Shown piece by piece: positions 12,561 through 58,700 of a DNA stretch of 64,000 bases. Under the pieces are notes generated by a model, which was not told the origin of the DNA, searched no databases, and saw only the letters and a program-made list of their open reading frames with translations. Made by a program: the position numbers and the translations under genes. This DNA comes from an uncultured Verrucomicrobiota bacterium (GTDB taxonomy: Bacteria; Verrucomicrobiota; Verrucomicrobiia; CAIQCK01). Position 1 is the stretch's first letter. Each line of letters opens with the position of its first letter. The stretch spans positions 16,964 through 80,963 of the forward strand of contig CAZGGF010000400.1 of NCBI GenBank assembly GCA_964524715.1, in the 5' to 3' direction.

Positions 12561-13313
12561 GTGAGTGGATTTTTCTACAACCTCGGACGCCATATGGGAC
12601 GCGTCGCCGTGCCGACCATCCGCAAGTCCAAGTGGATTTGGGACGGCCTGACCGGCACTGAAGAAGAAGCATTGCGCGCCGAAGCATCTTTTGGCAGCGC
12701 ACTGGCTGTCGAGCTTCGGGCTGCTACGAAGCGGGCGGATGACCCGCACATGACATCCCTTCTCAATGATCTATGCGGCCGGCTGGCCGGATGTGCGCGC
12801 GACAAACGCCGGGCCTTCCGCTGTGAGGCGATTCACGACGACTCTCCAAACGCAATGGCACTGCCCGGAGGTTTCATCTTTGTGAGCCACTCGTTGGTGG
12901 ACCTTTGCGAGCGCCGTCCGGAAGAACTGGCGTTCATCATCGGGCATGAGATGGCCCACGTCATCCGCGAACACGCATGGAACCGGATGTTGAACCAGGC
13001 AATCTCGCGCGCTGTGTCGGTCATCGCCGCACGCGCCGGCCCGTTGGGCGAATGGTTACGCCAGAAGGGCATCGGGCTTCTGCAAAGCGCCCACTCCCAA
13101 GACAACGAACAAGAGGCGGACGAACTGGGTCTTCATCTCATGGCTGCAGCCGGTTTTGCGCCCGGCGGCGCCATCGCGTTGCTGCAACGCATCGAGCGAC
13201 TCGGACCGAAGTGCGCGGAGTTCGGCCAGTATTTTGCCTCCCATCCCCCGGCTGGCGAGCGAATCGCCCGCTTGGCGCCGCTTTGCCGGCAACTGGCTTC
13301 AGGCCGTCCTTGA
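12561..13313 (+). CDS. M48-family zinc metallopeptidase
   Basis: It contains the HEMAHVIREH (HExxH) motif and a downstream EQEADELG. The N-terminus SGFFYNLGR is typical of this subfamily, so the start is probably GTG 12561 (the ORF opens at 12522). Confidence 0.85.
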   Translation: MSGFFYNLGRHMGRVAVPTIRKSKWIWDGLTGTEEEALRAEASFGSALAVELRAATKRADDPHMTSLLNDLCGRLAGCARDKRRAFRCEAIHDDSPNAMALPGGFIFVSHSLVDLCERRPEELAFIIGHEMAHVIREHAWNRMLNQAISRAVSVIAARAGPLGEWLRQKGIGLLQSAHSQDNEQEADELGLHLMAAAGFAPGGAIALLQRIERLGPKCAEFGQYFASHPPAGERIARLAPLCRQLASGRP

Positions 13314-13355
13314 TCTGCAAATCCAAGTTGTCCCACAAGCCACTCGCGCGGCGCA

Positions 13356-13754
13356 TCAGCCTTTCTTTTCGTCCTGCTTGGGTTTCAACAGCGACTCCAG
13401 CTTGTCAAAGGGATTGGTGACCAAAGGCGGAGGCGGCTTATCAGGCCCGCTTTGCCCCTCGTAGTACTTGCCGATCAGCGACTTCTCGTGCTCGTGATCG
13501 TGGCAATAGACACAGAGCAATTCCCAGTTGCTGCCGTCGGCGGGATTGTTGTCATGATTGTGGTCCCGATGATGAACAGTGAGTTCTCGCAGGCGTTTCC
13601 CGGAAAACTCGCGGCCACAACTTGCGCAGATGTGTGGAAATATCTTGAGCGCCTGTTCCCGATATCCCTGCTGCCGGATTTCCTGCTCACGCAGAATCTC
13701 GGCGAGCAGTTTCTTATGTCCATCGGTATTGGTTGGCGGTTTGTTGGAGGACAT
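13356..13754 (-). CDS. yajD: YajD-like HNH endonuclease
   Basis: GYREQALKIFPHICASCGREFSGKRLRELTVHHRDHNHDNNPADGSNWELLCVYCHDHEHEK aligns closely with E. coli YajD. The likely start is ATG 13754 (MSSNKPP). Confidence 0.85.
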   Translation of the reverse strand: MSSNKPPTNTDGHKKLLAEILREQEIRQQGYREQALKIFPHICASCGREFSGKRLRELTVHHRDHNHDNNPADGSNWELLCVYCHDHEHEKSLIGKYYEGQSGPDKPPPPLVTNPFDKLESLLKPKQDEKKG

Positions 13755-13774
13755 TGCTGCAAGCCACGGTAATA

Positions 13775-13942
13775 TCACTTAAAGCCGCTGGAAACCAGAC
13801 TGCCCAAGACCACTCCGAAAATGATACTCCCCCACGGAGAGCTTGTGATCATTCACCCTCCCGAATGGCAGCCGACGAACTTGTAGTAGAGGAATCCGCA
13901 CGCGCCGCCAATCACAGCACCGATGATGAGCTTGATAATCAT
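13775..13942 (-). CDS. Candidate selenoprotein: 55-codon small membrane protein with in-frame UGA (13853-13855)
   Basis: This ORF is absent from the ORF track because the TGA splits it. It translates as MIIKLIIGAVIGGACGFLYYKFVGCHSGG[U]MITSSPWGSIIFGVVLGSLVSSGFK. The pattern YY.FVGC.SG.C.ITS.P...G matches, from memory, small DUF6132-type membrane proteins, and the TGA sits at the second Cys. A hairpin follows the TGA directly. Confidence 0.5.
13821..13852 (-). promoter_or_regulatory. SECIS-like stem-loop immediately 3' of the in-frame UGA
   Basis: The mRNA reads UGA-AUGAU-CACAAGCU-CUCC-GUGGG-GGAG-U-AUCAU. The lower stem is 5 bp, the upper stem is 4 bp, and the apical loop begins GU about 17 nt after the UGA. 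Confidence 0.4.
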
Positions 13943-14289
13943 GACTCGTCTCAATCCATGAACCAGACAACATTGAGAGACTAGCACATCGCGCGCGTGT
14001 GCTCAAATATCCCCTGCCCTTTGCCCCCGTCCCCGTTCTTCTGCGGTCTCTGGCGTCTACGTTATAGGCGCTAACGGTGGCGGGATACATTCCCATGAGA
14101 TCATCAAACTCGTCGTTGAATGTGTTTCCTGAGTTGTGGCCTTGCTCGTGGCACCAACCTCTCACGCCGAGGACGACGCCATCGCCAAACCGTTCGCTGG
14201 TCACTGGGAAGGCAGCGTCCGGATCGCTGCAGATTGGTGCAAGCAGCGCCAACTGGCCGCGGCGATTGACATTCACCCCACCGGCAGTG

Positions 14290-15060
14290 TCATCGCTTGG
14301 ATGGGGCACCTGGCTGTATCTCCCGATTCTTCATCACCACGATGAGGGAACCAAAACAGTTCCCCGGTTTGATTTGATCCGGAGGAAACACCTTCATGTC
14401 GGATATATCTCCGTCCAGGAATAGCGCATTCTGGCAGCCGTACTCCATGAAGGCCATGGCGAAGTCATGGAGATTCGGCTTCCGCTGCGATTCAAACCTC
14501 GTGATCAGGAAGATTGCTTTGCCATCGCTTCGGATTCCCACTCCGTTTCTGTGGAGGCGCGATTCCGAGCCGGCGCGAAACTGGGGATGAACCCTGCCAT
14601 TCTCCAAAAGCAAAGGGCCCGATTGCACAGCCCACTCTGGCTGCAGTTTTGCCGACGAGAAATGCGCGGTCTCCATTACGCCAGCCACACCTCGCGCGAC
14701 GAAGAACACCCCGTTTGGTTTGAGATAGAAATTACCTTTTCCTGAGTCGAGGTTGAGAGGACGAATCTGCCGTCCATCCTGCACAAGCAACCCGGCTGGA
14801 ATACCCTGCGGTTCAAAGATGCCACCGTTGGTTATCATCTGAACCCGCTCTCCCTTCGACTCCAAATATGGCACCAAGACTGCAAACTGCCGGAACGCCT
14901 CACCCGAGGGATTGCTCCAATAGACGCGAACTTGTGCCGGATCGGCCACGAAGCGACGGTACTCTATTCCCTTGATCGAGACTGGCTCGTCCAGTGCCTC
15001 CGCCGCGCATGCAGCAACGCCGGCCAAACTCATAAGTGTCAAAAACACATACGTTCGCAT
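14290..15060 (-). CDS. Phosphodiester glycosidase family (DUF2233/NAGPA-like) secreted protein
   Basis: It has a signal peptide. Motifs MITNGGIF, GNFYLKPNGVF, QSGPLLLENG, RNGVGI and ALFLDGD are characteristic of the family. Confidence 0.8.
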   Translation of the reverse strand: MRTYVFLTLMSLAGVAACAAEALDEPVSIKGIEYRRFVADPAQVRVYWSNPSGEAFRQFAVLVPYLESKGERVQMITNGGIFEPQGIPAGLLVQDGRQIRPLNLDSGKGNFYLKPNGVFFVARGVAGVMETAHFSSAKLQPEWAVQSGPLLLENGRVHPQFRAGSESRLHRNGVGIRSDGKAIFLITRFESQRKPNLHDFAMAFMEYGCQNALFLDGDISDMKVFPPDQIKPGNCFGSLIVVMKNREIQPGAPSKR

Positions 15061-15477
15061 AGGTCGCCTTCAGACTGAGATCTCGAAAGCATTCGGTTCC
15101 AAAAAGCTATAATCGCTGTCGTCCCACTGGTTATCTGATTGAGAGTTGAATAGAGCTGGTTTGCAGTATACGGGCTCACCATGCGGCAAGCGATCAATAG
15201 AAAATGGGTGATGTGATCTTTGCCAAAATCGTGAGATCTGCTGTACCATGTCCGTGCCAGGGGATGGATGGTTTTCGCAGAAACCTCCAGAAAACCAGAA
15301 CCGGTTCCGAGAGGCCTCGGCTGTCGGCCATCTGAAACGCCGATGAGGGATTGTTAACAGATGGAGAACGGTTATGCCCTTCGTTCTTTGACAAGTGTAT
15401 TGGGCGAGCCGCCTTGTGGTGGCCGTCTCCCGCACCGACACAGGAGGTTGCCAGCGCGATCCGAGTAACCCGCAGAT

Positions 15478-23574: not shown

Positions 23575-24336
23575 TCAGAATTGCCCGGCGTCAGGGTTGA
23601 TGAGCAGATAACCGGCGGCGCGCACGGTGCGGATGAACCGCGGTTCTTTCGGATCATCGCCGAGTTTCCTGCGCAACGCTGAGATATGAACGTCAATGGA
23701 TCGATCGAACACCTCATAGTTACGATCGCGAATCTCCTCCAGAAGATGCTCACGGGTTTTTACGCGTCCCCGAGCGCGAGCAAGACTTGCCAGCAAATCA
23801 AATTCGACAGGCGTCAGCACGAGCGGCTTGTCGTCAAAAACAGCCGTGCGCGAGCCAGTGTTCACCCGCAGTTTGCCAACAACAATCTCTGGTTCGGCCT
23901 TCTCGTCTTCCTGTAACGCAGCCATGGACGCACGGCGCGTGACGGCGCGCAGGCGTGCCAATAGCTCGCGCGTCGAGAAAGTCTTCGGCAGGTAATCGTC
24001 CGCGCCGATTTCCAATCCCACGATGCGGTCGGATTCGTCGCCGCGCGCGGTGAGCATCAGCACGGGCACGCTGGACTTGTGGCGGATCTGTTTGAGCACC
24101 TCAAAACCGTCCATGCCCGGCAGCATCACGTCGAGAATCACTGCCTGCCACGTTTCCGCGGTTGCTTTCTCAACTCCCTCCGGCCCTGTGTGAACCGCCG
24201 ACACGTCGTAACCGAGTGGCTCCAGGTAAGTCTTGATGAGCCGGCAAAGTTTGCGGTCATCGTCAACCACCAGCACACGCGCAAGCGTGCCGGTGCTGGC
24301 GCTGGCTGAATCGGCGTGGCGCTCTGTTGGAGTCAT
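23575..24336 (-). CDS. OmpR/PhoB-family response regulator
   Basis: It has a receiver domain (VLVVDDD...DVMLPGMDG...LTARG) and a winged-helix C-terminus (LTPVEFDLL...RSIDVHISALRRKL...IRTVRAAGY). It ends 3 nt before the HK start. The start is 24336 or 24390. Confidence 0.9.
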   Translation of the reverse strand: MTPTERHADSASASTGTLARVLVVDDDRKLCRLIKTYLEPLGYDVSAVHTGPEGVEKATAETWQAVILDVMLPGMDGFEVLKQIRHKSSVPVLMLTARGDESDRIVGLEIGADDYLPKTFSTRELLARLRAVTRRASMAALQEDEKAEPEIVVGKLRVNTGSRTAVFDDKPLVLTPVEFDLLASLARARGRVKTREHLLEEIRDRNYEVFDRSIDVHISALRRKLGDDPKEPRFIRTVRAAGYLLINPDAGQF

Positions 24337-24389
24337 AGCAGATTCTTCAACAGGAAGTGTACCCTCTCCTTCCCCACTGCGCTGCAACA

Positions 24390-24438
24390 TTTACGTTTCC
24401 TTTACATTTTTCCTCCGCGTCACACACGAATTCTTTAC
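24390..24438 (+). promoter_or_regulatory. Phased TTTAC direct repeats, candidate OmpR-family binding site
   Basis: TTTAC occurs at 24390, 24401 and 24434, with spacings of 11 and 33 bp. The context TTTACATTTTT resembles E. coli OmpR half-sites. The repeats lie in the divergent regulator/operon intergenic region. Confidence 0.3.
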
Positions 24439-24475
24439 ACGCCCGCTGTTCAATACAGGTAAAGGAAACAGAACT

Positions 24476-26305
24476 ATGAAAACGCAAACGACAATTTCAG
24501 TGGTGATTGGCGCGTGGCTGATGGTGCTGTGCGCGGATGGCGCGGCGATGCAGCAAACGATGCCTGGCTTTGCGCTCATCCCGGCTGGCAAGTTTGAGAT
24601 GGGCGACCATCACGGATTCGTGGACCCGAAACACGGCGGCGATGAGACGCCACTCCATACGGTGCGGTTGGACGCGTTCTACATGGGCGTCTGCACGGTC
24701 ACGACGCGCGAGTATTGCGAGTTTCTCAACTCGGCGATCGCCCAACGCATGATCGAGGTGCGGCAGGGTGGCGTGTACCTCACGGGCGGGAAAGACCTCT
24801 TGTGCGAGACGCGTGAGATGTCGCCTTACAGCCGAATCGGCTTCAGTGCCGGGAAGTTCACCGTACTCGACCGAAAGGAAAACCATCCCATTGTCTGCAT
24901 CCGCTGGCCAGGCGCGGCGGTCTACTGCAACTGGCTGAGCACACAGAAACGGTTGCCGACCTGCTACAACACAACGACGTGGGACTGCGATTTCAACAAG
25001 AGCGGCTTCCGGCTGCCAACGGAGGCGGAGTGGGAATACGCCGGGCGCGGCGACCTGCACAATCCCTACCGCAATTTTCCATGGGGCGACGAGCCGGACG
25101 CCACAAAGGCGAACTGGCCGGAGTCGAAGAATCCGTTTCGCGCCGGTCCCCTTCCCTGGACGACACCGGTCGGGTTCTTCAACGGGCAAACGCACCGTAA
25201 AGCGGACTTCGGCTGGCCCGGCGCACAGGAGACGTTTCAAACCTCGAACGGCGCCAATGGCTACGGCCTCTACGACATGAGCGGCAATGTCTGGCAATTC
25301 ATCAACGATTGGTACGTGCGCGATTACTACGCTTACAGCCCGGCGGAAAACCCGCCCGGCCCGGCGAGCGGCAGTCTGGTGCAGGATGGCAAGCCGTATC
25401 GCGGCATGCGCGGCGGAAATTGGTATAATGGCGAGAACGGCCACGGCCGGGTGTCCAACCGCAATCCGTCCTACTATCGCGGTCCGCAGGACCCGGATCA
25501 TCCGTATTACCACCTCGGCTTCCGTGTCGTGCTGCCGGTCAACGCCGAAAGCCGGCCGGTCATCAAGCCAACGCCCGTGCAACACATCGGCGGTCGCGAG
25601 GGTGCACCGGGCGGAGGTCGGCCAGGGAAAGGCGGCGGTGGTGGCCGACGGCGCTCCAGTGATCAGACCCGGTCAGATGACAATCGCCCGCCGCGAGATG
25701 GCCAGGGTGGCGGCGCCGCAACGCGCGAACAAGGCGGTCGTCCGCAGCGTCCCGATGCCCAACGGCCGGCTCGTTCCGGCTCATTCGTCCTGAGCAGTCC
25801 CGAGGTGACCGATGGCGGGACGCTGCCGGCGGAGTTCACCGGCGACGGCGCAAGCATCACGCTGCCACTCCAATGGACCGGCGCGCCGACCGGCACAAAA
25901 AGCTACGCACTCATCATGCACCATGAGGCGCCGGACCAGACCAAATGGTATTGGATCCTCTACAACATACCTGCGGATGTTCGGAACCTGCCCAAGAATG
26001 TGAAGGATGTGGGCACGCTGGGCAATAACAGCGTCAACGAACGGACCGAATATGCCCCGCCCCACTCGAAAGGGCCAGGCGCGAAGACCTACATCTATAC
26101 TGTCTATGCGCTGTCAGCGCCGCTGCAACTGACCGTCCCGCCATCTCAAGTCAACCGCGAAGTTCTTCTCGCGGCCATGAAGGACCGTATCCTTGCGAGC
26201 GCAGAATTGAGCGTGGTTTACACGCGCCCAGGCAATGGCGGCGAAGACGGGGGCGGCGAGCGACGCAGACCAAGCAAGTCGGAAGATCGTCCGCAACGCA
26301 ATTGA
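24476..26305 (+). CDS. Fusion protein: FGE/SUMF1-family domain + Gly/Arg-rich linker + YbhB/YbcL (PEBP) domain
   Basis: It has a signal peptide. The FGE-type motifs are FEMGDHHG, RLPTEAEWEYAGRG, GNVWQF..DWY, MRGGNWY and GFRVV. The linker is GGREGAPGGGRPGKGGGGGRRR...DNRPPRDGQGGG. The PEBP-type motifs are SYALIMHH.APDQTKWYWILYNIP...YAPPHSKGPGAKTYIYTVYAL. Confidence 0.8.
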   Translation: MKTQTTISVVIGAWLMVLCADGAAMQQTMPGFALIPAGKFEMGDHHGFVDPKHGGDETPLHTVRLDAFYMGVCTVTTREYCEFLNSAIAQRMIEVRQGGVYLTGGKDLLCETREMSPYSRIGFSAGKFTVLDRKENHPIVCIRWPGAAVYCNWLSTQKRLPTCYNTTTWDCDFNKSGFRLPTEAEWEYAGRGDLHNPYRNFPWGDEPDATKANWPESKNPFRAGPLPWTTPVGFFNGQTHRKADFGWPGAQETFQTSNGANGYGLYDMSGNVWQFINDWYVRDYYAYSPAENPPGPASGSLVQDGKPYRGMRGGNWYNGENGHGRVSNRNPSYYRGPQDPDHPYYHLGFRVVLPVNAESRPVIKPTPVQHIGGREGAPGGGRPGKGGGGGRRRSSDQTRSDDNRPPRDGQGGGAATREQGGRPQRPDAQRPARSGSFVLSSPEVTDGGTLPAEFTGDGASITLPLQWTGAPTGTKSYALIMHHEAPDQTKWYWILYNIPADVRNLPKNVKDVGTLGNNSVNERTEYAPPHSKGPGAKTYIYTVYALSAPLQLTVPPSQVNREVLLAAMKDRILASAELSVVYTRPGNGGEDGGGERRRPSKSEDRPQRN

Positions 26306-26354
26306 AAATCAGAAGCTGAGTCACCTCTAACACCAGGTTCACAGGAGAAAGATC

Positions 26355-28082
26355 ATGAACACAACGAAACAAACCATACGCAGACTGGTAAAGGACGCAC
26401 TGTTGACGTTGCTGGCAATCGGCAGCGTGGCGTATTTCGCCGGTATCATTACCGCGCAAGAGCAACCCGACAACCGTCCACCCCGCCCCGATGGCCAGGG
26501 CCGGGATCGCGAGGGCGGTGGTGGCGGAGGCGGTGGTGGCGACCGTCGCGGAGGCGGCGGAGGAGGCGGTGGCAAGCGTGAGATGCCGGAGAACAAAACA
26601 CCGGTTTCGCCGAATCCCGGCCAGACCGTCGGTCTCTTCCTCAACACGCCGAAGGCTTACAACGGCTACACGCTGTTCGCGCCCAAGCACAACATGGTGA
26701 CCTACTTGATGAACAATGCCGGACAAGTCTGTCATTCGTGGAAGAGCGAATACGAACCCGGACAGACGGTTTATCTGCTGCCCAATGGCCACCTGATCCG
26801 CGCCTGCATGCTGCGGGTACAGGGCGGCACCGGTGGCGGTGAAGGCGGACGTATCGAAGAATATGACTGGGATGGCAAGCTGATCTGGGAGTTCGACCAC
26901 GCCACCCGCGATTACCAGTTGCATCACGACATCAAGCCTCTGCCCAATGGAAACTTCCTCGCCCTGATGGTCGAGCGGAAATCCCACGAGCAGGCGTTGG
27001 CCGTTGGTTTCGAGGAAGGCATGATGCGCGACGATTACCTGGTGCCCGACGCGGTGGTCGAAATCCAGCCCATCCGGCCCAAGGGCGGGAAGATCGTCTG
27101 GGAATGGCACGTCTGGGATCATCTGATCCAGGACTCCGACCGCAGCAAACCCAACTACGGCGATCCCGCGCAACACCCCGAGCGGGTCTACGTCAATTGC
27201 AACGGCCGGGCGGTGGCCGCCTTCTGGAATCACATGAATTCGCTCGACTACAACGCGAAGCTCGACCAGATCGTCCTGAGCGTGCGCGGCTGTAACGAAA
27301 TCTGGATCATTGACCACAGCACGACGACACAGCAAGCGGCCGGTCGCACCGGCGGCAAGCACGGCAAAGGCGGCGATCTCATTTATCGCTGGGGCAATCC
27401 CGCGGCCTACAAGCGCGGCACTCTCAAGGACAAGCAGCTGGTCCAGCAGCACGACGCGCTGTGGATTCCTGACGGTTATCCCGGCGCCGGTCACATGACG
27501 ATCTTCAACAACGGCTACGACCGCGGTTGGTCGAGCGTCGAGGAAATCGTGCTGCCGATGGATGCCAGCGGCCGCTACATCCTTGAGCCGGGCAAAGCTT
27601 ACGGTCCCGCCAAGCCTGTCTGGCACTACGAGGCAAAGAATCGCACGGACTTCTTCTCGGCCGAGATCTCCGGCGCACACCGCCTGCCCAACGGCAACAC
27701 TCTCATCTGCGGAGGCATCGTGGGCAACTTGTTCGAGGTCACACCCACAGGCGAGATGGTCTGGCAATACGTCAACGCCATGGTTCGCGGCGGCATCCTC
27801 GCGCAAGGCGAGTTGCCCGGCAAAGACATGCGCGGCCATTTGTGGAACGCCGTGTTCAAGGTCCATCGCTACGAGCCGAACTATCCCGGTCTGGCGGGAC
27901 GCGATCTGACTCCGAAAGGCGTCGTTGAACTGCCCGCCTCCATGAAAGGCAAGACCGGCCTCCATCTGATGACCGAAGCGCAACGCACCGACCAAGGCCC
28001 CAATGGCAAAGGCAAGGGCAAGGGCAAGGAAAACCGTAATCGAGACAACCGCTCATCTCGCGACGACCAGCGCAACAACTAA
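26355..28082 (+). CDS. Arylsulfotransferase (ASST)-like beta-propeller protein 1
   Basis: It has an N-terminal TM/signal segment followed by poly-Gly/Arg. The propeller motifs YNGYTLF, LPNGHL, HHDIKPLPNGN, WEWHVWDHLIQD, HMNSLDY, IYRWGNPAAY, HMTIFNNG and RLPNGNTLI are shared with its paralog downstream. An aggag SD is present. Confidence 0.7.
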   Translation: MNTTKQTIRRLVKDALLTLLAIGSVAYFAGIITAQEQPDNRPPRPDGQGRDREGGGGGGGGGDRRGGGGGGGGKREMPENKTPVSPNPGQTVGLFLNTPKAYNGYTLFAPKHNMVTYLMNNAGQVCHSWKSEYEPGQTVYLLPNGHLIRACMLRVQGGTGGGEGGRIEEYDWDGKLIWEFDHATRDYQLHHDIKPLPNGNFLALMVERKSHEQALAVGFEEGMMRDDYLVPDAVVEIQPIRPKGGKIVWEWHVWDHLIQDSDRSKPNYGDPAQHPERVYVNCNGRAVAAFWNHMNSLDYNAKLDQIVLSVRGCNEIWIIDHSTTTQQAAGRTGGKHGKGGDLIYRWGNPAAYKRGTLKDKQLVQQHDALWIPDGYPGAGHMTIFNNGYDRGWSSVEEIVLPMDASGRYILEPGKAYGPAKPVWHYEAKNRTDFFSAEISGAHRLPNGNTLICGGIVGNLFEVTPTGEMVWQYVNAMVRGGILAQGELPGKDMRGHLWNAVFKVHRYEPNYPGLAGRDLTPKGVVELPASMKGKTGLHLMTEAQRTDQGPNGKGKGKGKENRNRDNRSSRDDQRNN

Positions 28083-28095
28083 AGGAGTCAGCATC

Positions 28096-29736
28096 ATGAA
28101 ATACGCAACACTGATCATGTGCGCAATACTGGCGGGTTCAGCGTCCGCTTACGAACGCCTGCAAGGCCCCACTGAGTTGCTCCTCTGCAACAAGGAGAAG
28201 GCGCTCAACGGCTACACGCTCTTCGGCGTTGGCAGCCGGACGTTCCTGCTCGACATGGAAGGGCGCGTGGTTCACACGTGGGCCATCGGCACCAACCCGC
28301 ACCTGCTCGACAACGGCAACATCCTCGACGCGTCGAAAGACGACCCCAGTGGTTTCCAGGGTTTCACAGAGGTCGATTGGGACGGCAAGAAGGTTTGGGA
28401 ATACACCGAGAAGCGCGAGAACTACGCGCCGCATCACGATTGGGTGCGCATCTTCAACAAGAAGCTCAATGCGCCCACCACGCTCTACATCGCCAACAAG
28501 TCCATCTCTTACGACCAAGCCGTCGCTGCCGGAGCCGACCCCAAGAAGGCCTCGACCGAGGGCGGCCAAATGGACGCGGTCGTCGAGGTGGATATGCAAG
28601 GCAACGTGATTTGGGAATGGTGCTTCTTCGATCACGTCGTGCAGGACCTGGACCCGTCAAAGCCCAACCACGTCGGTGCGGGCAAGACCATCGCGGACCA
28701 TCCCGGCCGCATCAACATCAACATGCCGGGCCGTCCGCTCAGGCGCGACTGGCTCCACTGCAACTCAATGGACTATAACGCCGAGACCGGCCACATCGTC
28801 ATCAATTCCGTGCAGGGTGAACTCTACGTGGTTGACCACGATGGCACGTTCGTCGCCGGCGACCCGAAGGCCAGCATCGCCAAGGCCGCCGACCCCGCGG
28901 GCGATTTCCTCTACCGCTTCGGCGACCCGGCCCGCTACGCGCAGGGCGACCCGCCGCGTGTGCTGGAAAACTGGGACTCCGCCACCTCCGGCCACAAGCA
29001 GATGGGCGGCGCGCACGACGTGCATTGGATCCGGCCCGGCCTGCCCGGCGCGGGACACATCATGGTCTTCAACAACGGCCAATATCTCTACCAGCGCACG
29101 CCCGGTTCCTCGATTTTGGAAATCAATCCGTTCCTCGACGCGAGCGGGCGTAACACAGGCGAGTATGTCAATCCGCCCGATGCCGGCTACCGTCGCGAAA
29201 CCTACGAACACGACACGCATAACCAGCCGCGGCAAATCTCGAAGCAAGTCGTCTGGAGTTACAGTTCCGTGAACAGCCACGGTTTCTTCAGCCACATCGG
29301 CTCCAGTGGCCAGCGCCTGCCGAACGGCAACACCTTCATCTGCTCCGACACCGAGGGCCATTTCTTCGAGGTCACCGACAAGGGCGAACTCGTTTGGGAG
29401 TACATCAACCCCGTCACGCGCGATGGTCCGGTGAAAGTGCTCGGCGACGTGCTGCCGATGACCAACTCTGCCTTCCGCGCCTTCCGTTACCCCGTCGATC
29501 ATCCCGTCTTCAAAGGCCGCGACCTGACACCCAAGGGCACCATCACCGAGCGCGCCGCGCAAGGCGTTGACGTTTATCCCAAGAGAGGCGCCGGTGACCG
29601 TAAAGGCAAAGGCGGCGACCGCCGCGGCAAGGGTGGCAAAGGCGGCGGCAAGGGCGGCCAGCGCGGAGGAGAAGGTGGCGGCGCGGGTGAAAATCGCGAT
29701 AACCAGCCGCAACGCGACAAGCCGCAAGAGAAATGA
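28096..29736 (+). CDS. Arylsulfotransferase (ASST)-like beta-propeller protein 2
   Basis: It has a signal peptide (MKYATLIMCAILAGSASA) and an SD (aaaggag). It is a paralog of the upstream gene (LNGYTLF, HHDW, WEWCFFDHVVQD, HCNSMDY, LYRFGDPARY, HIMVFNNG, RLPNGNTFI). The C-terminal tail is Gly/Lys/Arg-rich. Confidence 0.7.
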   Translation: MKYATLIMCAILAGSASAYERLQGPTELLLCNKEKALNGYTLFGVGSRTFLLDMEGRVVHTWAIGTNPHLLDNGNILDASKDDPSGFQGFTEVDWDGKKVWEYTEKRENYAPHHDWVRIFNKKLNAPTTLYIANKSISYDQAVAAGADPKKASTEGGQMDAVVEVDMQGNVIWEWCFFDHVVQDLDPSKPNHVGAGKTIADHPGRININMPGRPLRRDWLHCNSMDYNAETGHIVINSVQGELYVVDHDGTFVAGDPKASIAKAADPAGDFLYRFGDPARYAQGDPPRVLENWDSATSGHKQMGGAHDVHWIRPGLPGAGHIMVFNNGQYLYQRTPGSSILEINPFLDASGRNTGEYVNPPDAGYRRETYEHDTHNQPRQISKQVVWSYSSVNSHGFFSHIGSSGQRLPNGNTFICSDTEGHFFEVTDKGELVWEYINPVTRDGPVKVLGDVLPMTNSAFRAFRYPVDHPVFKGRDLTPKGTITERAAQGVDVYPKRGAGDRKGKGGDRRGKGGKGGGKGGQRGGEGGGAGENRDNQPQRDKPQEK

Positions 29737-29759
29737 CCGTGCGAAATTTGGAGGCGCAA

Positions 29760-31178
29760 ATGAAAAGACTGATGTGGATCGTCACTCTGTCGGTCGCTGC
29801 CGCGCTCAGCGCACCGCTTCCGGCGGCCACGCCGCAGCGGCCCAATTTCGTCTTCATCCTGGGCGAAGGCCATGGCTGGAGCAGCACGTCCGTGCGAATG
29901 GATGACGCCGTAGCAGAGTCCAAGAGCAGCTTCGCGCGCACGCCGAACTTCGAGAAGCTCGCGCAGACCGGGATGCGGTTCGCGAACTTCTACGCGCCGT
30001 CGCCGCGCTGCACACCATCGCGCGCCACGTTCTTCACCGGCAAAAGCCCGGCGCAGTTGCACATGACGTTCGTCGGCGAAGGCAAGAAGGACAGCGGTGG
30101 CGGCGCGAACACCCGCATGCTGCCGCCCCCAAGTTCAATCGAACTGCCCACGAGCGAGACAACGATCGCGGCGCTGCTCAAGCGCGCGGGCTACGCGACG
30201 GCGCACTTCGGCAAATGGCACGTGGGGCGGATTAACCCGAAGGAATACGGATTCGACTCGAGCGACGGTCCGACCAGCAACGGCGGCCCTGACAACGTGG
30301 ACAATCCGCACCCAAAACAACTCTTCGGCATGACCGAGCGCGGTATCGAGTTCATGACACGCCAGGTCCGTGCCGGCAAACCGTTCTATCTCCAGATGTC
30401 GCACTACGCCTCACGTAATGGAGGCGACGCGCGGCCGGAGAGCGTCACGACGGTGAAAGGCTGGTCTGTGGAGGAGCGCGACGCGAGCACCGCCGCCGCC
30501 GACCTCGACCTTGATGTCGCGTTCGGGATGGTGCTGAAAAAGCTCGACGAACTCGGCATCGCGAACAACACCTACGTGATTTTCACCACTGACCACGGCA
30601 CGCCGGGGAAAAATTCTCCCTTCGCCGGTGGCAAAGGTACCGTCTCTGAGGGCGGCCTGCGCGTGCCGTTCATCATCCGCGGCCCCGGCATCAAGCCCGG
30701 CGTGTGCTCACACGTGCGGACGGTCGGCGCGGATTTGTTTCCTACAATCGCCGAGCTGGCGCGCGTGAGCGGACCGTTACCCAAGGGCGTCGAGGGCGGC
30801 AGCTTCGCGTCGGTGCTTGCCAACGCCGGAAACGGCACGGTCAAGCGCCCGCGCGAAGAATACGCCGTCCATTTCCCGCACTACGACAAGGACGCCATCG
30901 GCCCGGCCTCCGCGACCCTGCTCGGCGACTTCAAACTTATCCGCGTCTATGAAACCGGCGCGCTGGAACTGTTCAACATCGCCAAGGACCCCGGCGAACG
31001 CCGTGATCTGGCGCAACAGATGCCTGACAAGGTGAAGGAACTCGACCAGCGATTGACCGACTACCTCACGTCGGTCAACGCGCAGATGCCAACCAAGAAC
31101 CCGAATTACGACCCGAGCAAGCCGACGGCCGAACCCAAACGCGGCAAGGGAAGAAGCGGGAAGAAAAAGGACCGATGA
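29760..31178 (+). CDS. Cys-type (formylglycine-dependent) sulfatase
   Basis: It has a signal peptide, then PNFVFILGEGHGW, the SPRCTPSRATFFTGK motif (C-x-P-x-R) and GKWHVG. A GGAGG SD lies 5 nt upstream of ATG 29760. Confidence 0.9.
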   Translation: MKRLMWIVTLSVAAALSAPLPAATPQRPNFVFILGEGHGWSSTSVRMDDAVAESKSSFARTPNFEKLAQTGMRFANFYAPSPRCTPSRATFFTGKSPAQLHMTFVGEGKKDSGGGANTRMLPPPSSIELPTSETTIAALLKRAGYATAHFGKWHVGRINPKEYGFDSSDGPTSNGGPDNVDNPHPKQLFGMTERGIEFMTRQVRAGKPFYLQMSHYASRNGGDARPESVTTVKGWSVEERDASTAAADLDLDVAFGMVLKKLDELGIANNTYVIFTTDHGTPGKNSPFAGGKGTVSEGGLRVPFIIRGPGIKPGVCSHVRTVGADLFPTIAELARVSGPLPKGVEGGSFASVLANAGNGTVKRPREEYAVHFPHYDKDAIGPASATLLGDFKLIRVYETGALELFNIAKDPGERRDLAQQMPDKVKELDQRLTDYLTSVNAQMPTKNPNYDPSKPTAEPKRGKGRSGKKKDR

Positions 31179-56832: not shown

Positions 56833-57384
56833 TTACACCACTTCGCGATAGGCGTCGGGATGGGGACGCGGGATGACGACGGCGTTCACAAGTACGCCAC
56901 GGTCGGCGATGAGTTGTTTGCCGGCTTGGACGGCGGCCTGCACGGCGGCAACGTCGCCCGTCATGGTGCAAAACGCCTTGCCGCCGAGCGCCATCGCCAG
57001 ACGGATTTCCATCAACGTCACGTTCGCGGCTTTCGCGGCAGCGTCAGCGGCCTCGAGTAGCGAGACAACGCTGAAAGACTCCAGAATGCCGAGCGCGCCG
57101 CCGGCAGGCGGCACCTGGCTGCGGCCAATGGCCGTGAGCACCTCGGGATGAGGATTCGGCAATACAAACTGGTCAATGAGGCAGCCGTTGGCGGCGGCAG
57201 TTCCAGCGTCTACTGCGCTCTGCACGGCAGCGACGGCGCCGGAGATGGCGACCATGTATTTGCCAGAGCAGATACTGCGCGAGAGGACGATCTGGACGTT
57301 GGCGGCCTTGAGCATGGCGTCGGCCACGGCGAAGCCGGCGGCGACGCTGGTGAGTTCGATGATGCCAATGGATTTCCCGTTCAT
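56833..57384 (-). CDS. pduT: Tandem-BMC-domain shell protein (BMC-T), PduT-like
   Basis: It is 183 aa and colinear with Salmonella PduT. IGIIELTSVAAGFAVADAMLKAANV...SRSICSGKYMV matches [25 protein letters not shown]...SKTICPGKFLL, including the Fe-S ligand Cys. The second BMC repeat is GILESFSVVSLLEAADAAAKAANV and the C-terminal motif is VIPRPH. Confidence 0.9.
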   Translation of the reverse strand: MNGKSIGIIELTSVAAGFAVADAMLKAANVQIVLSRSICSGKYMVAISGAVAAVQSAVDAGTAAANGCLIDQFVLPNPHPEVLTAIGRSQVPPAGGALGILESFSVVSLLEAADAAAKAANVTLMEIRLAMALGGKAFCTMTGDVAAVQAAVQAGKQLIADRGVLVNAVVIPRPHPDAYREVV

Positions 57385-57386
57385 GG

Positions 57387-58700
57387 TTACCTTGTCAAAA
57401 TGATGCGATCGTTGGTCACGTCGGCGACGGTGGCGGCAAACGGTGCGTGGATGATTGCGCCGAGCGCGTCTTTCGGAATCTCGCCCAGCGGCTGGCCAGC
57501 CTTAACCTTGTCGCCTTTCTTCACCAGCGGTTTGTTCGGCGCACCGGCCCCTTGCCGTAACGGCAGGAAAACCTTGCGCGGCTTGAGTTCGATATCGTTC
57601 CACGGCGCGGGGGCGTCAAATTGCTCAACATTGAGCCGCTGAGCAAGCGCCTTGATCGGCACGCGCCGGCCCTCTCGCAATCCGTGCGGCTGGGTGGGCG
57701 CTGTGCCGGTCCATTTGACGTTCGCGGCGCGCATCTCGGCCTTGGAAGCGTCGCACGCTTCCTTGGGGAAAAGCTGTTCCGGGCAGGAGTAGAGCGTGCA
57801 GAGGCCGCACGAACAACAGTTGGCCGCCAACTGGTTCCAGTATTTCCTGTCCGTCGCGGTAAACGCGAGGCTGCGCATGACCTGATGTGGCTCCACTTGA
57901 TAGCCAAGCAGATAGCGCGGGCAAAGCTCGGTGCAGTAGCGGCATTGATCGCAGGCGGACTTGCCGATGCGAGCCTGGATTTCCGCGGGCTTGGTCTTGC
58001 GGCTGGCAACTCGATGGCTGCGCGGCAGGATGACAACGCCGGTGGTGGTCTTGACGATCGGCGTGTCGAGATTGTCGGTCGTCTGGCCCATCATCAAACC
58101 GCCGAGGCAGAGCACCGGATCATCCGTCGTCAGGCCGCCGGCAATCTCAATCACTTCGCGGAAGGTGGTGCCGACCGGAACCGTGAGGGTCATTGGGTTC
58201 TTCACCGCGCCATTGATCGTGAGTATCTTGTGCGTAACCGGCACGCCTTTCGCCGCGGCGGCGATGTTCACAAGGGTCTCGACGTTGTTGACGACCACGC
58301 CAACCTGCAACGGGATGCCTTGCGGCGGGATGAGCCGGCCCGTTACCGAGTAAACCAAATCGTATTCGTCGCCCGCCGGGTAGTAGTCGCCGAGCAGATG
58401 AACGCGGACCGGCGTGCCTTTGCATGCAGCTTGGCAGGCTTCGACGGCGTGCTTTTTCTTACCCTTGATGCCGATCACGCCCTCTTTGGCTCCAACGGCC
58501 TTCATGACCAACTGGATGCCAGCGACTACGTCCGCCGCACGGCGTTCCATAATGACCGCGTCCTTGTGCAGTAAAGGCTCGCACTCAGCTCCGTTGGCGA
58601 TAACGGTGTCGGCTTTGCCACCCAGTTTGACGTGCGTCGGGAAACCGCCACCGCCCGCACCGACCACGCCGGCCTGTTTTACCTGTTCTACCAAGCTCAT
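57387..58700 (-). CDS. pduS: PduS/RnfC-like flavo-iron-sulfur oxidoreductase
   Basis: It has GVVGAGGGGFPTHVKL (RnfC/51K-type nucleotide/FMN motif), an SLBB-like region and two ferredoxin motifs (CDQCRYCTELCP, CCSCGLCTLYSCP). The C-terminus is a barrel-sandwich-like domain (KKGDKVKAGQPLGEI). It ends 2 nt before pduT. Confidence 0.8.
   Translation of the reverse strand: MSLVEQVKQAGVVGAGGGGFPTHVKLGGKADTVIANGAECEPLLHKDAVIMERRAADVVAGIQLVMKAVGAKEGVIGIKGKKKHAVEACQAACKGTPVRVHLLGDYYPAGDEYDLVYSVTGRLIPPQGIPLQVGVVVNNVETLVNIAAAAKGVPVTHKILTINGAVKNPMTLTVPVGTTFREVIEIAGGLTTDDPVLCLGGLMMGQTTDNLDTPIVKTTTGVVILPRSHRVASRKTKPAEIQARIGKSACDQCRYCTELCPRYLLGYQVEPHQVMRSLAFTATDRKYWNQLAANCCSCGLCTLYSCPEQLFPKEACDASKAEMRAANVKWTGTAPTQPHGLREGRRVPIKALAQRLNVEQFDAPAPWNDIELKPRKVFLPLRQGAGAPNKPLVKKGDKVKAGQPLGEIPKDALGAIIHAPFAATVADVTNDRIILTR

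What the first reader, a model, noticed from the sequence alone, without database searches (positions are those of the whole stretch)
13775..13942. Unannotated small membrane protein with UGA at a conserved Cys position plus a SECIS-like hairpin: candidate selenoprotein
- **ORF:** On the minus strand, ATG 13942 opens a 55-codon frame that the ORF track misses, because a TGA at 13853-13855 splits it into two halves shorter than 60 aa.
- **Translation:** Read through, it gives MIIKLIIGAVIGGACGFLYYKFVGCHSGG-U-MITSSPWGSIIFGVVLGSLVSSGFK.
- **Family match:** The pattern YY.FVGC.SG.C.ITS.P..S...G...G.L is, from memory, that of small DUF6132-type membrane proteins. The TGA falls exactly where the second Cys of the C-x4-C motif would be. 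A Cys/Sec correspondence of this kind is the classical hallmark of a selenoprotein.
- **Hairpin:** The RNA directly after the UGA folds as AUGAU / CUCC-GUGGG-GGAG / AUCAU. The apical loop starts GU about 17 nt from the UGA, which fits bacterial SECIS geometry.
- **Coding signal:** Both halves keep GC-rich third positions. The frame ends at TGA 13775, 20 nt upstream of the yajD ATG.
Basis: partly seen in the sequence, partly recalled or inferred. Interest (0 to 1): 0.72.

Follow-up and report, generated by a model that had tools for sequence, protein, structure and literature searches.

The report
Small membrane selenoprotein, DUF6132 family
A 55-codon gene for a two-helix membrane protein has a UGA where all its relatives have a conserved cysteine, and comparative evidence from four phyla indicates the UGA is read as selenocysteine, so this looks like a selenoprotein family missing from current catalogues.

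Summary

**What is there**
- The minus-strand ORF 13942-13775 has an in-frame TGA at 13855-13853.
- With C in place of the stop, the protein matches Pfam DUF6132 just above its threshold.

**Evidence for selenocysteine**
- The TGA aligns with a Cys present in 149 of 149 family representatives.
- A DNA pattern that requires the TGA found about 22 distinct genes in Verrucomicrobiota, Cloacimonadota, Armatimonadota and Leptospirales. All read on into a conserved second helix.
- Downstream pN/pS is 0.18-0.38 in frame, against 0.7-7 out of frame.
- Each lineage has its own hairpin 17-25 nt after the UGA, with a G[GU] loop.
- Synonymous variation collapses at the hairpin in TGA-forms and does not in Cys-forms.
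- One Verrucomicrobiota relative has tRNA-Sec about 680 nt from the gene.
- TGA is the commonest ordinary stop in the window, so the code is not reassigned.

**Weaknesses**
- The window holds no sel genes, and its genome could not be retrieved.
- Folding energy and the published SECIS rules do not discriminate here.

**Novelty and function**
- The family is absent from a 2026 inventory of 119 selenoprotein families and from NCBIfam.
- Cys-forms sit beside rhodaneses and thioredoxins, which suggests a thiol/selenol relay. That function is inferred.

The parts
13775..13942 (-). Complete gene: 55 codons plus stop, read through one UGA. It encodes a DUF6132-family two-helix membrane protein, MIIKLIIGAVIGGACGFLYYKFVGCHSGG-U-MITSSPWGSIIFGVVLGSLVSSGFK.
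   Evidence: Translation. Pfam PF19628 match. Orthologues with the same structure. In-frame purifying selection on both halves.
13853..13855 (-). In-frame TGA (codon 30), the proposed selenocysteine codon. It occupies the second Cys position of the family's invariant C-x2-G-x-C motif.
   Evidence: 149 of 149 representatives have Cys here. TGA is conserved in 9 distinct Verrucomicrobiota sequences.
13853..13870 (-). C-H-S-G-G-U motif (Cys25 to Sec30), the predicted redox or chalcogen-binding pair. It lies in the loop between the two helices.
   Evidence: The AlphaFold model of the closest Cys-form (P0001, pLDDT 83.7) places both Cys residues in the 13-residue loop between the helices.
13819..13854 (-). 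SECIS-like stem-loop. The lower stem is 13854-13848 paired with 13825-13819. A 5-nt bulge follows. The upper stem is GCUCUCC/GGGGAGU, 13842-13836 paired with 13832-13826. The apical loop GUG is at 13835-13833 and starts 17 nt after the UGA.
   Evidence: Folds. Pairing kept in 95% of cells across 9 sequences, against 49-68% when the partners are slid. Synonymous diversity of 0.10 at codons +4 to +9 against 0.36 elsewhere. No such dip in Cys-form genes.
13874..13939 (-). Predicted transmembrane helix 1 (about residues 2-23). It is Gly-rich (GAVIGGACG).
   Evidence: Read from the sequence. Helix 2-21 in the model of P0001.
13781..13837 (-). Predicted transmembrane helix 2 (about residues 36-54). 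It is encoded entirely downstream of the UGA.
   Evidence: Helix 35-51 in the model of P0001. Downstream in-frame pN/pS of 0.38 in the Verrucomicrobiota set.
13356..13754 (-). Co-oriented downstream gene for an HNH-domain (YajD-like) protein, 20 nt after the small gene's stop. It is a lineage-specific neighbour and is not thought to be functionally linked.
   Evidence: Pfam HNH match. Adjacency is kept in L001, L010, L011, L012 and L019 but not in L009, L017, L020 or the other phyla.

Best explanation
This is a real gene for a 55-residue integral-membrane helical hairpin of the DUF6132 family. The second cysteine of the invariant loop motif G-C-x2-G-x-C has been replaced by selenocysteine.

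**Proposed decoding.**
- The ribosome reaches UGA30.
- The stem-loop that begins 13 nt downstream, with a G-U-G apical loop 17 nt from the UGA, acts as a bacterial SECIS.
- The SECIS recruits SelB carrying Sec-tRNA(Sec), Sec is inserted, and translation continues through the second helix to the TGA at 13775.

**Shown here.**
- The TGA aligns with an invariant Cys.
- The downstream half is translated in frame.
- The TGA-forms recur in four phyla.
- An RNA-level constraint coincides with the hairpin.
- TGA is otherwise a normal stop codon in this window.

**Inferred.**
- The inserted residue is Sec, rather than some other amino acid inserted by leaky read-through.
- This genome has selA, selB, selC and selD.

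**Function (inferred, about 0.4-0.5).** The Cys25/Sec30 pair in the inter-helix loop forms a reversible selenenylsulfide, or carries sulfane sulfur or selenium at the membrane surface. It would exchange with soluble rhodaneses and thioredoxin-type reductants. Sec would serve as the stronger nucleophile.
For: **1. Cys/Sec correspondence**
- All 149 small representatives, each a separate 50%-identity cluster, carry C-x2-G-x-C.
- The eight full-length close homologues do as well.

**2. TGA-forms recur widely**
- About 22 distinct genes were found in Verrucomicrobiota, Cloacimonadota, Armatimonadota and Leptospirales.
- Every one continues past the TGA into x-[ILF]-T-[ST]-[NS]-[PV]-[WF]-[SG]-S...G...G.

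**3. The downstream half is translated in the same frame**
- Downstream pN/pS in frame is 0.38, 0.33 and 0.18 in the three lineages. The upstream half gives 0.27-0.30.
- The two off-frames give 0.7-7.
- The terminal stop stays at the same codon position in the ~90%-identical relative while its identity changes from TGA to TAG; TAG is also the terminal stop of most other Sec-form genes.

**4. RNA element**
- Each lineage has a different hairpin sequence at the same place: Verrucomicrobiota GCUCUCC-GUG-GGGGAGC, Cloacimonadota/Armatimonadota ACGUUU-GGUC/GGUU-AAGCGU, Leptospirales C[GA]GCA-GUA-UGCUG.
- Synonymous diversity falls to 0.12 at the hairpin codons against 0.59 elsewhere in the Cloacimonadota-type set. 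In the Verrucomicrobiota set it is 0.10 against 0.36.
- Pairing is kept in 95-96% of cells, against 16-68% when the partners are slid. There is one double compensatory change (C-G to U-A) and several wobble-preserving changes.
- Cys-form genes show no dip (0.74) and no consistent hairpin.

**5. Sec machinery in the clade**
- tRNA-Sec lies at L009:7847-7943, about 680 nt from the TGA-form gene in a Verrucomicrobiota genome. ARAGORN called it. Rfam RF01852 scores 63.5 bits against a gathering score of 47.

**6. Standard genetic code**
- 24 of 37 window ORFs of at least 200 aa end in TGA.

**7. Repeated origin**
- Each Sec group is closer to some Cys-forms (56-66% identity) than to the other Sec groups (42-54%).

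**8. Functional context of the family**
- In L032, L036, L037 and L038 the order is Crp-type regulator, rhodanese, rhodanese, DUF6132. Thioredoxin, a YgaP-like TM protein, a rhodanese-fused disulfide reductase or a methyltransferase lie nearby.
- In L039 the order is DUF6132, thioredoxin, MarR.
- The Leptospirales Sec-form lies beside a MarR, methyltransferase, radical-SAM and thioredoxin::thioredoxin-reductase cluster.

**9. Structure**
- The model of the closest Cys-form has pLDDT 83.7. It is a helical hairpin with both Cys residues in the connecting loop.
Against: - **No Sec machinery seen for this genome.** The 64-kb window has no selA, selB, selD or tRNA-Sec. The window's genome could not be retrieved.
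- **Energy is not unusual.** The hairpin's free energy does not stand out.
- **Published constraints do not discriminate.** They pass at 55% of random coding positions. Four AT-rich Cloacimonadota-type genes and L023 fail the -7.5 kcal/mol threshold.
- **Formal covariation is weak.** 44-50 of 500 shuffles reach the observed values, because the stems are nearly invariant.
- **Ascertainment.** The TGA-forms were found with a pattern that required TGA. The DNA scans therefore cannot say how often close relatives use TGY, TAA or TAG at this codon.
- **Stop-start coupling.** In the Verrucomicrobiota clade the codon after the UGA is AUG, so UGA-AUG coupling is formally possible there.
- **Weak functional context for Sec-forms.** Their neighbourhoods are not conserved. 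The rhodanese link rests on Cys-forms from a few related Bacteroidota-type loci.
Confidence: 0.8

Rival explanations
1. Sec-independent leaky read-through. The UGA is a programmed weak stop suppressed by a near-cognate tRNA that inserts Trp, Cys or Arg. This would give a mixture of a 29-residue peptide and a full-length protein without selenium.
For: No Sec machinery could be shown for this genome. Downstream purifying selection shows that the second half is translated, but it does not identify the inserted residue.
Against: - The stop falls exactly on an invariant Cys of a Cys pair, which is the classical Sec signature.
- Read-through would not need a hairpin with a G[GU] apical loop under RNA-level selection 17-25 nt downstream in three lineages.
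- tRNA-Sec is linked to the gene in L009.
- Inserting Trp or Arg at an invariant Cys would probably inactivate the motif.
Confidence: 0.08
2. Two separate micro-proteins. Translation ends at the UGA after a 29-residue one-helix peptide. The second helix is made separately from the AUG immediately after it, by UGA-AUG stop-start coupling.
For: In all nine Verrucomicrobiota sequences the codon after TGA is ATG. Both halves are under purifying selection, which this model also predicts.
Against: - In the Cloacimonadota, Armatimonadota and Leptospirales genes the codon after the TGA is CCN, TCN, AGT or GCN, which cannot initiate. The architecture is otherwise the same.
- Met at that position is an ordinary family residue, present in 9 of 149 Cys-forms and in the nearest Cys-forms P0007 and P0009.
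- Splitting the protein would separate the two residues of the invariant Cys pair.
- It does not explain the hairpin constraint.
Confidence: 0.05
3. Leader peptide plus attenuator. The 29-codon ORF is a leader. The GC-rich hairpin followed by AUCAUUUUC is an intrinsic terminator or attenuator that controls the downstream HNH gene.
For: The consensus scan flags 13842-13826 plus its tail as terminator-like. The HNH gene follows 20 nt after the small gene.
Against: - The sequence after the hairpin is under in-frame purifying selection and ends at a conserved stop position.
- The U-rich tail is simply the Ile-Ile-Phe/Leu codons of a hydrophobic helix and is interrupted in relatives.
- The HNH neighbour is absent in L009, L020 and all non-Verrucomicrobiota loci, which nevertheless keep the hairpin.
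- The Leptospirales hairpin has no U-tract.
Confidence: 0.03
4. Pseudogene or sequencing artefact. A nonsense mutation has inactivated an ordinary Cys-form DUF6132 gene.
For: A single TGC/TGT-to-TGA change would produce this codon. The outlier L023 (TGA without a convincing hairpin) could be such a case.
Against: - About 22 distinct sequences from independent assemblies in four phyla share the TGA.
- Downstream pN/pS is 0.18-0.38.
- No Cys-form more than 66% identical to the window protein was found among 5.8 billion proteins.
Confidence: 0.02
5. Genetic-code reassignment. UGA is read as Trp or Gly throughout this genome, as has been reported for some Verrucomicrobiota.
For: A 2026 paper notes UGA-to-Trp reassignment in some Verrucomicrobiota (PMC13462651, abstract seen).
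Against: TGA ends 24 of 37 ORFs of at least 200 aa in the window, and these have full-length Pfam matches. The small gene itself ends in TGA.
Confidence: 0.01

Closest known systems
DUF6132 (Pfam PF19628), Cys-containing forms
   Same: Same family. It has the same size, the same two Gly-rich hydrophobic helices and the same loop motif FLYYKF-x-G-C-x2-G-x-[C]-x-[IL]-T-S.
   Different: The window protein has UGA (Sec) instead of the second Cys. Residues after it (S-P-W-G-S) differ from the usual N-P-x-[IN]-S-T, apparently to accommodate the RNA hairpin. No function has been published for the family.
Canonical bacterial SelB/SECIS recoding, as in E. coli fdhF
   Same: There is an in-frame UGA, followed by a stem-loop inside the coding sequence whose small apical loop starts with G[GU] 16-37 nt downstream (model quoted in PMC13188914). 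The Cloacimonadota-type loop is GGUC, which from my memory is the fdhF loop sequence.
   Different: The hairpins are short, with a 5-8 bp upper stem and a 3-4 nt loop. The Verrucomicrobiota version has a 3-nt GUG loop. Binding to SelB has not been tested.
Putative mercuric transport protein selenoprotein (MerT-like, PF02411, C/SxxU) and YeeE/YedE thiosulfate-transporter-family selenoprotein (PF04143, GUxSG)
   Same: Both appear in the 2026 inventory. From my own knowledge they are membrane proteins, with a Sec at or near the membrane that is implicated in handling a soft metal or sulfur compound.
   Different: They are unrelated families; Pfam gave no hit to either at E<=10. From my knowledge they are larger, with more membrane-spanning helices than this two-helix protein. 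Their motifs also differ, with CxxU and GUxSG against C-x4-U.
YgaP-like TM domain proteins (PF11127) and membrane-anchored rhodanese YgaP
   Same: These are small two-helix membrane proteins with a conserved Cys, encoded next to rhodaneses. They sit in the same operons as Cys-form DUF6132 genes.
   Different: It is a different family. It has a single Cys in an F/Y-C-P-[LI]-Y motif near the C terminus and no Cys pair. No Sec forms were examined.
Rhodanese-like selenoproteins (forms 1-5 in PMC13188914)
   Same: They belong to the sulfur/selenium-transfer theme and have Sec in place of the catalytic Cys.
   Different: They are soluble alpha/beta rhodanese domains. The protein here is a putative membrane partner, not a rhodanese.

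Membership tests
DUF6132 (PF19628) | Match to the Pfam HMM at or above the gathering score | tested here: met
   The score is 23.6 bits against a cut-off of 23.2, E=4.1e-5, covering residues 2-50 of 55 with U replaced by C. The margin is small, but phmmer hits to PF19628-annotated proteins at 1e-9 to 1e-13 support it.
DUF6132 (PF19628) | Two hydrophobic helices joined by a loop that carries G-C-x2-G-x-C-x-[IL]-T-S | tested here: met
   The window protein has G-C-H-S-G-G-U-M-I-T-S. The motif is invariant in 149 of 149 representatives. The model of the closest Cys-form is a helix-loop-helix.
Bacterial selenoprotein (SelB/SECIS-dependent) | In-frame UGA aligned with Cys in homologues | tested here: met
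Bacterial selenoprotein (SelB/SECIS-dependent) | Coding conservation continues downstream of the UGA in the same frame | tested here: met
   pN/pS is 0.18-0.38 in frame and 0.7-7 out of frame. The stop position is conserved in the close relative.
Bacterial selenoprotein (SelB/SECIS-dependent) | UGA-containing orthologues in other organisms | tested here: met
   About 22 distinct genes in four phyla.
Bacterial selenoprotein (SelB/SECIS-dependent) | SECIS stem-loop: 3-9 nt apical loop with G in its first two positions, upper stem of 4-16 bp, 16-37 nt from the UGA, dG <= -7.5 kcal/mol | tested here: met
   The window hairpin has a 7-bp stem, a GUG loop and 17-nt spacing, and passes. These constraints pass at 55% of random coding positions, so meeting them means little. 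The stronger support is synonymous-site suppression and kept pairing at the hairpin, both absent from Cys-forms.
Bacterial selenoprotein (SelB/SECIS-dependent) | selA, selB, selC (tRNA-Sec) and selD present in the same genome | not testable with these tools
   None lies in the 64-kb window, and the genome is not retrievable. Indirect support comes from a tRNA-Sec next to the orthologue in Verrucomicrobiota locus L009.
Bacterial selenoprotein (SelB/SECIS-dependent) | Selenium shown in the protein (75Se labelling or mass spectrometry) | not testable with these tools
   This is an experiment.
Any of the 119 catalogued prokaryotic selenoprotein families or subfamilies | Listed by domain accession or motif in the 2026 inventory, or matched by an NCBIfam selenoprotein model | tested here: not met
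   PF19628, DUF6132 and a C-x4-U motif do not appear in Table 1 of PMC13188914 or in the BSepDB main text. NCBIfam release 20.0 gave only a weak CrcB hit at E=0.079.
Glycine zipper 2TM (PF05433), YtxH (PF12732), YgaP-like TM (PF11127), MerT (PF02411) | Pfam HMM match at the gathering score | tested here: not met
   PF05433 scores 9.2 bits against 24.2. PF12732 scores 7.8 bits against 37.5. PF11127 and PF02411 are not reported at E<=10. The 'YtxH domain-containing' name that NCBI gives P0006 is not supported.

The most novel reading that the evidence does not exclude
DUF6132 proteins would be a previously unrecognised class of membrane-embedded chalcogen relay. An oligomerising Gly-zipper hairpin would present a ring of Cys/Cys or Cys/Sec pairs at the membrane face. 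It would pass sulfane sulfur, or selenium, between the membrane or periplasm and cytoplasmic rhodaneses and thioredoxins. The Sec-forms, which arose at least three times, would be the smallest known integral-membrane selenoproteins in bacteria. They would mark the catalytic residue of the whole family of about 7,000 clusters.
Probability: 0.25. Interest if true: 0.75.

Novelty: new member of a known kind. Interest (0 to 1): 0.62.

Why it matters
- **Annotation.** Gene callers either miss these genes or cut them to 25-31-residue fragments; P0008 is the only trace of this clade in a collection of 5.8 billion proteins. The family is missing from the 2026 inventory and from NCBIfam, so current pipelines cannot annotate it.
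- **Selenium biology.** It would add a very small integral-membrane selenoprotein. It would also extend the list of selenoprotein families found in Verrucomicrobiota, Cloacimonadota and Leptospirales.
- **The DUF6132 family.** Replacement of Cys by Sec at one position, apparently several times independently, marks that residue as the reactive centre. Together with the rhodanese and thioredoxin neighbourhoods, this gives a large family of unknown function its first testable hypothesis.
- **Method.** In GC-rich genomes the standard bSECIS constraints are close to uninformative. Suppression of synonymous changes at the hairpin, compared between TGA-forms and Cys-forms, discriminates much better.

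Tried and rejected
1. **Hairpin energy against dinucleotide shuffles and synonymous recodings**. It was not significant, so I dropped it as evidence.
2. **Published bSECIS constraints as a test**. They pass at 55% of background positions, so they do not discriminate. A stricter filter passes at 0.9%, but I defined it after seeing the data, so I use it only as description.
3. **Second split gene upstream** (15441-15070 and 15060-14290). Rejected. The second ORF starts with its own Met and signal peptide, and the region is not syntenic with L001.
4. **Other TGA-split genes in the window**. All candidates were ordinary gene boundaries or antisense frames.
5. **Sec machinery in the window and in 24 fetched loci**. 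Only the tRNA-Sec in L009 was found.
6. **Identifying the window's genome by exact-protein look-up**. Nothing is on record.
7. **Looking up full-length U-containing proteins in the protein collection**. The tool rejects 'U'.
8. **BSepDB supplements**. None are held.
9. **Solved-structure relatives by sequence and by fold**. Only generic helical hairpins came back, all with E > 3.
10. **Alternative code in L023**. The contig is too short to decide.
11. **Literature searches** for DUF6132 and for a small membrane selenoprotein. Nothing relevant was found.
Full report
**Observation**

The minus-strand frame from ATG 13942 to TGA 13775 translates as MIIKLIIGAVIGGACGFLYYKFVGCHSGG*MITSSPWGSIIFGVVLGSLVSSGFK*, with the internal stop a TGA at 13855-13853. 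The mechanical ORF list shows only the two fragments. With C in place of the stop, the protein matches Pfam DUF6132 (PF19628) at 23.6 bits, just above the 23.2-bit cut-off. NCBIfam has no model for it. The next gene, 20 nt downstream, carries an HNH domain.

**Cys/Sec correspondence**

A phmmer search of 5.8 billion proteins found eight full-length homologues, all with G-C-x2-G-x-C-[PM]-[IL]-T-S. It also found one 31-residue fragment (P0008, 93% identical) that ends exactly before the TGA column. A profile search of 1.84 billion cluster representatives found 1,376 members at E<=0.001. All 149 small proteins among the best 150 have both cysteines. The TGA therefore replaces an invariant Cys of a Cys pair.

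**Recurrence of the TGA**
- P0008's contigs come from a Verrucomicrobiia MAG. The region is about 90% identical at the DNA level. It keeps the TGA, the downstream frame and the position of the terminal stop, while the stop itself changes from TGA to TAG.
- I then scanned 596 Gb of genomes and the metagenome collection with a degenerate pattern that requires the TGA. The pattern is YY[KR]F-x-GC-x2-G-x-TGA-x-[ILVMF]-T. It carries about 44 bits, and I estimate about 0.07 chance hits in the genome set.
- It returned 13 loci from each collection. One (L026) looks like a chance hit and one (L023) is an unresolved outlier.
- This gave about 22 distinct genes: nine Verrucomicrobiota (counting the window), eleven Cloacimonadota or Armatimonadota, and two Leptospirales.
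- Each reads through the TGA into a conserved second hydrophobic helix.

**The second half is translated**

Nei-Gojobori counts within each lineage give an in-frame pN/pS of 0.38, 0.33 and 0.18 for the 24 codons after the TGA. The 24 codons before it give 0.27-0.30. The two alternative frames give 0.7-7. This excludes a pseudogene. It also excludes a leader peptide followed by non-coding sequence.

**The RNA element**
- Each lineage has a hairpin that starts 13-20 nt after the UGA, and the sequences differ between lineages.
  - Verrucomicrobiota: GCUCUCC-GUG-GGGGAGC.
  - Cloacimonadota and Armatimonadota: ACGUUU-GGUC/GGUU-AAGCGU.
  - Leptospirales: C[GA]GCA-GUA-UGCUG, extended by CCAU/AUGG.
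- Folding energy is not exceptional: z=-0.8 against shuffles and a mean z of -0.83 against synonymous recodings of the same peptide.
- The published bacterial SECIS constraints come from PMC13188914. They are a 3-9 nt loop with G in its first two positions, a 4-16 bp stem, 16-37 nt spacing and dG <= -7.5. The window hairpin meets them, but so do 55% of random codon positions in this window's genes. Meeting them means little.
- Synonymous-site variation does discriminate.
  - In the Cloacimonadota-type set, synonymous codon diversity is 0.59 over the gene and 0.12 over codons +5 to +10. Both Ser codons in the stem are fixed, while Ser codons elsewhere vary freely.
  - In the Verrucomicrobiota set it is 0.10 at codons +4 to +9 against 0.36 elsewhere.
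- Pairing is kept in 95-96% of cells, against 16-68% for slid partners. There is one double compensatory change (C-G to U-A in L006) and several wobble-preserving changes. Formal covariation statistics are weak because the stems hardly vary.
- Seven distinct Cys-form genes serve as the negative control. They show no dip at these codons (0.74) and no consistent hairpin.
- The RNA constraint is therefore specific to the TGA-forms and sits where a SECIS should be.

**Sec machinery and genetic code**
- The window has no tRNA, no Rfam hit, and no SelA, SelB or SelD among 40 ORFs scanned with Pfam.
- Its genome could not be found by exact-protein look-up. The key requirement is therefore untested for this organism.
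- Scanning the fetched loci for tRNAs found a tRNA-SeC (anticodon TCA) in L009, a Verrucomicrobiota MAG. It lies about 680 nt from the TGA-form gene. Rfam confirms it as RF01852 at 63.5 bits against a gathering score of 47.
- According to PMC1273633 (abstract seen), SelC is a signature of the Sec-decoding trait.
- Genome-wide UGA reassignment has been reported in some Verrucomicrobiota (PMC13462651). It is excluded here, because TGA ends 24 of 37 long ORFs in the window.

**Rivals**
- *Stop-start coupling.* The codon after the UGA is AUG in all Verrucomicrobiota sequences. In the other lineages it is CCN, TCN, AGT or GCN. Met is also an ordinary residue at that position in Cys-forms, in 9 of 149.
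- *Terminator.* A consensus scan flags the hairpin plus AUCAUUUUC. This is explained by the Ile-Ile-Phe codons of helix 2 and is contradicted by the selection downstream.
- *Leaky read-through without Sec.* This is the only rival that survives in any strength. It would need no hairpin.

**Structure and function**
- An AlphaFold model of the closest Cys-form (P0001, 48-sequence alignment) has mean pLDDT 83.7. It shows helix 2-21, a 13-residue loop that holds both Cys residues, and helix 35-51. A shallower model had pLDDT 63.
- No solved structure is related by sequence or by fold.
- Neighbourhoods of the Sec-forms are not conserved.
  - Verrucomicrobiota: an HNH gene.
  - Cloacimonadota: a YgjP-like peptidase, a nitroreductase, a GNAT and an MFS transporter.
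  - Leptospirales: MarR, a methyltransferase, a radical-SAM enzyme and a thioredoxin::thioredoxin-reductase fusion.
- Cys-forms show a recurring array of Crp-type regulator, rhodanese, rhodanese and DUF6132. Nearby lie thioredoxin, a YgaP-like TM protein, a rhodanese-fused disulfide reductase and a methyltransferase (L032, L036, L037, L038). L039 has DUF6132, thioredoxin and MarR.
- From this I infer a thiol/selenol relay at the membrane that works with rhodaneses and thioredoxin. This is inference from context in a few related loci. Two Clostridia loci were uninformative.

**Evolution**

Each Sec group is closer to particular Cys-forms (56-66% identity) than to the other Sec groups (42-54%), and each has its own hairpin sequence. 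This suggests at least three independent Cys-to-Sec switches at the same residue. Proteins of 50 residues give limited resolution.

**Novelty**
- No paper in the library mentions DUF6132 in this sense.
- The May 2026 inventory of 119 prokaryotic selenoprotein families and subfamilies lists neither PF19628 nor a C-x4-U motif.
- BSepDB's main text does not mention it either.
- NCBIfam release 20.0, which holds the models the inventory cites for most recent families, has no match.
- I therefore rate it a new member of a known kind. It is a new selenoprotein family, the Sec-containing branch of a known DUF, decoded by the known bacterial mechanism.

**Verdict**
- Confidence that this is a real selenoprotein gene is about 0.8. 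The main gap is direct evidence for the Sec machinery in this genome and for selenium in the protein.
- Confidence in the proposed redox or sulfur-relay function is about 0.4-0.5.

Noticed in passing
L009:7847-7943 (+); small gene at L009:6990-7172 (-): A tRNA-Sec gene lies about 680 nt from the TGA-form DUF6132 gene in a Verrucomicrobiota MAG (CAZAAF010000099.1). A small ORF lies between them. This could be genomic linkage of selC with a selenoprotein gene. The rest of the 11-kb contig, which might hold selA or selB, was not available.
   Followed up: partly
window 13300-14350; general: The published bacterial SECIS constraints are met at 55% of 3,000 random codon positions in this window's genes (60% GC). 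In GC-rich genomes they barely filter anything.
   Followed up: yes
Verrucomicrobiota Sec-form alignment, codons -10 to -4 (window about 13885-13865): There is a second zone of very low synonymous diversity (0.08-0.13) just upstream of the UGA, over Y-K-F-[VI]-G-C-H. The search pattern explains only part of it: GGC in 9 of 9 and AAG in 9 of 9 are not forced by the pattern. The Cloacimonadota set does not show it. It might be an upstream context effect on recoding.
   Followed up: no
L023:792-835 (+), contig Ga0116171_10073778: A Clostridia-like DUF6132 gene has TGA at the Cys column and an intact downstream frame. Its only hairpin (AGAUC-CAC-GAUCU) has no G in the loop. It could be an atypical SECIS, a recent nonsense mutation or a different genetic code. 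The 2.1-kb contig is too short to decide.
   Followed up: partly
P0011 (3,486 aa): A very long repetitive protein has about 32 tandem copies of a unit that contains FYGCSNGECNITSH. It scores 7.5e-24 against the DUF6132 profile through the motif alone. Its origin is unknown, and it may be a repeat artefact or a eukaryotic sequence.
   Followed up: no
L007 and L013 (MAGs labelled Armatimonadota) compared with L004, L006, L015, L016, L018 (Cloacimonadota): The 'Armatimonadota' genes have the same peptide type and the same ACGUUU-GGUC-AAGCGU hairpin as the Cloacimonadota genes, and their loci have similarly low GC (0.34-0.35). This could be horizontal transfer or mis-binning.
   Followed up: no
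L008:896-4799 (-): Beside the Leptospirales Sec-form gene, and divergent from it, lies a cluster of MarR, a SAM methyltransferase, a radical-SAM enzyme and a thioredoxin fused to a thioredoxin-reductase-type flavoprotein.
   Followed up: partly
window 56833-58700 (-): A tandem-domain BMC shell protein sits next to an RnfC/Nuo51-like iron-sulfur flavoprotein. This looks like part of a bacterial microcompartment locus, as I recall from PVC-group bacteria.
   Followed up: no
window 24233-31178 (+): This is a sulfatase-related cluster. It holds a fusion of an FGE-sulfatase (formylglycine-generating enzyme) domain with a PEBP domain (690 aa), then an arylsulfotransferase and a sulfatase.
   Followed up: no
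window 13775-15441 compared with L001:8474-10174: Synteny with the ~90%-identical relative breaks immediately upstream of the small gene. The window has a secreted NAGPA-type phosphodiester glycosidase (14290-15060, -), where L001 has an unrelated 470-residue membrane protein. Only the small gene and the HNH gene travel together. The 123-codon ORF at 15070-15441 has low GC3 (0.54) and is probably not a gene.
   Followed up: partly
P0006 (NCBI name) and P0010, P0198, P0215 (JGI names): Public names for DUF6132 proteins are inconsistent and unsupported. They include 'YtxH domain-containing', 'phage shock protein E', 'F0F1-type ATP synthase assembly protein I' and 'tetrahydromethanopterin S-methyltransferase subunit G'. 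The YtxH model scores only 7.8 bits against a 37.5-bit cut-off for the window protein.
   Followed up: partly
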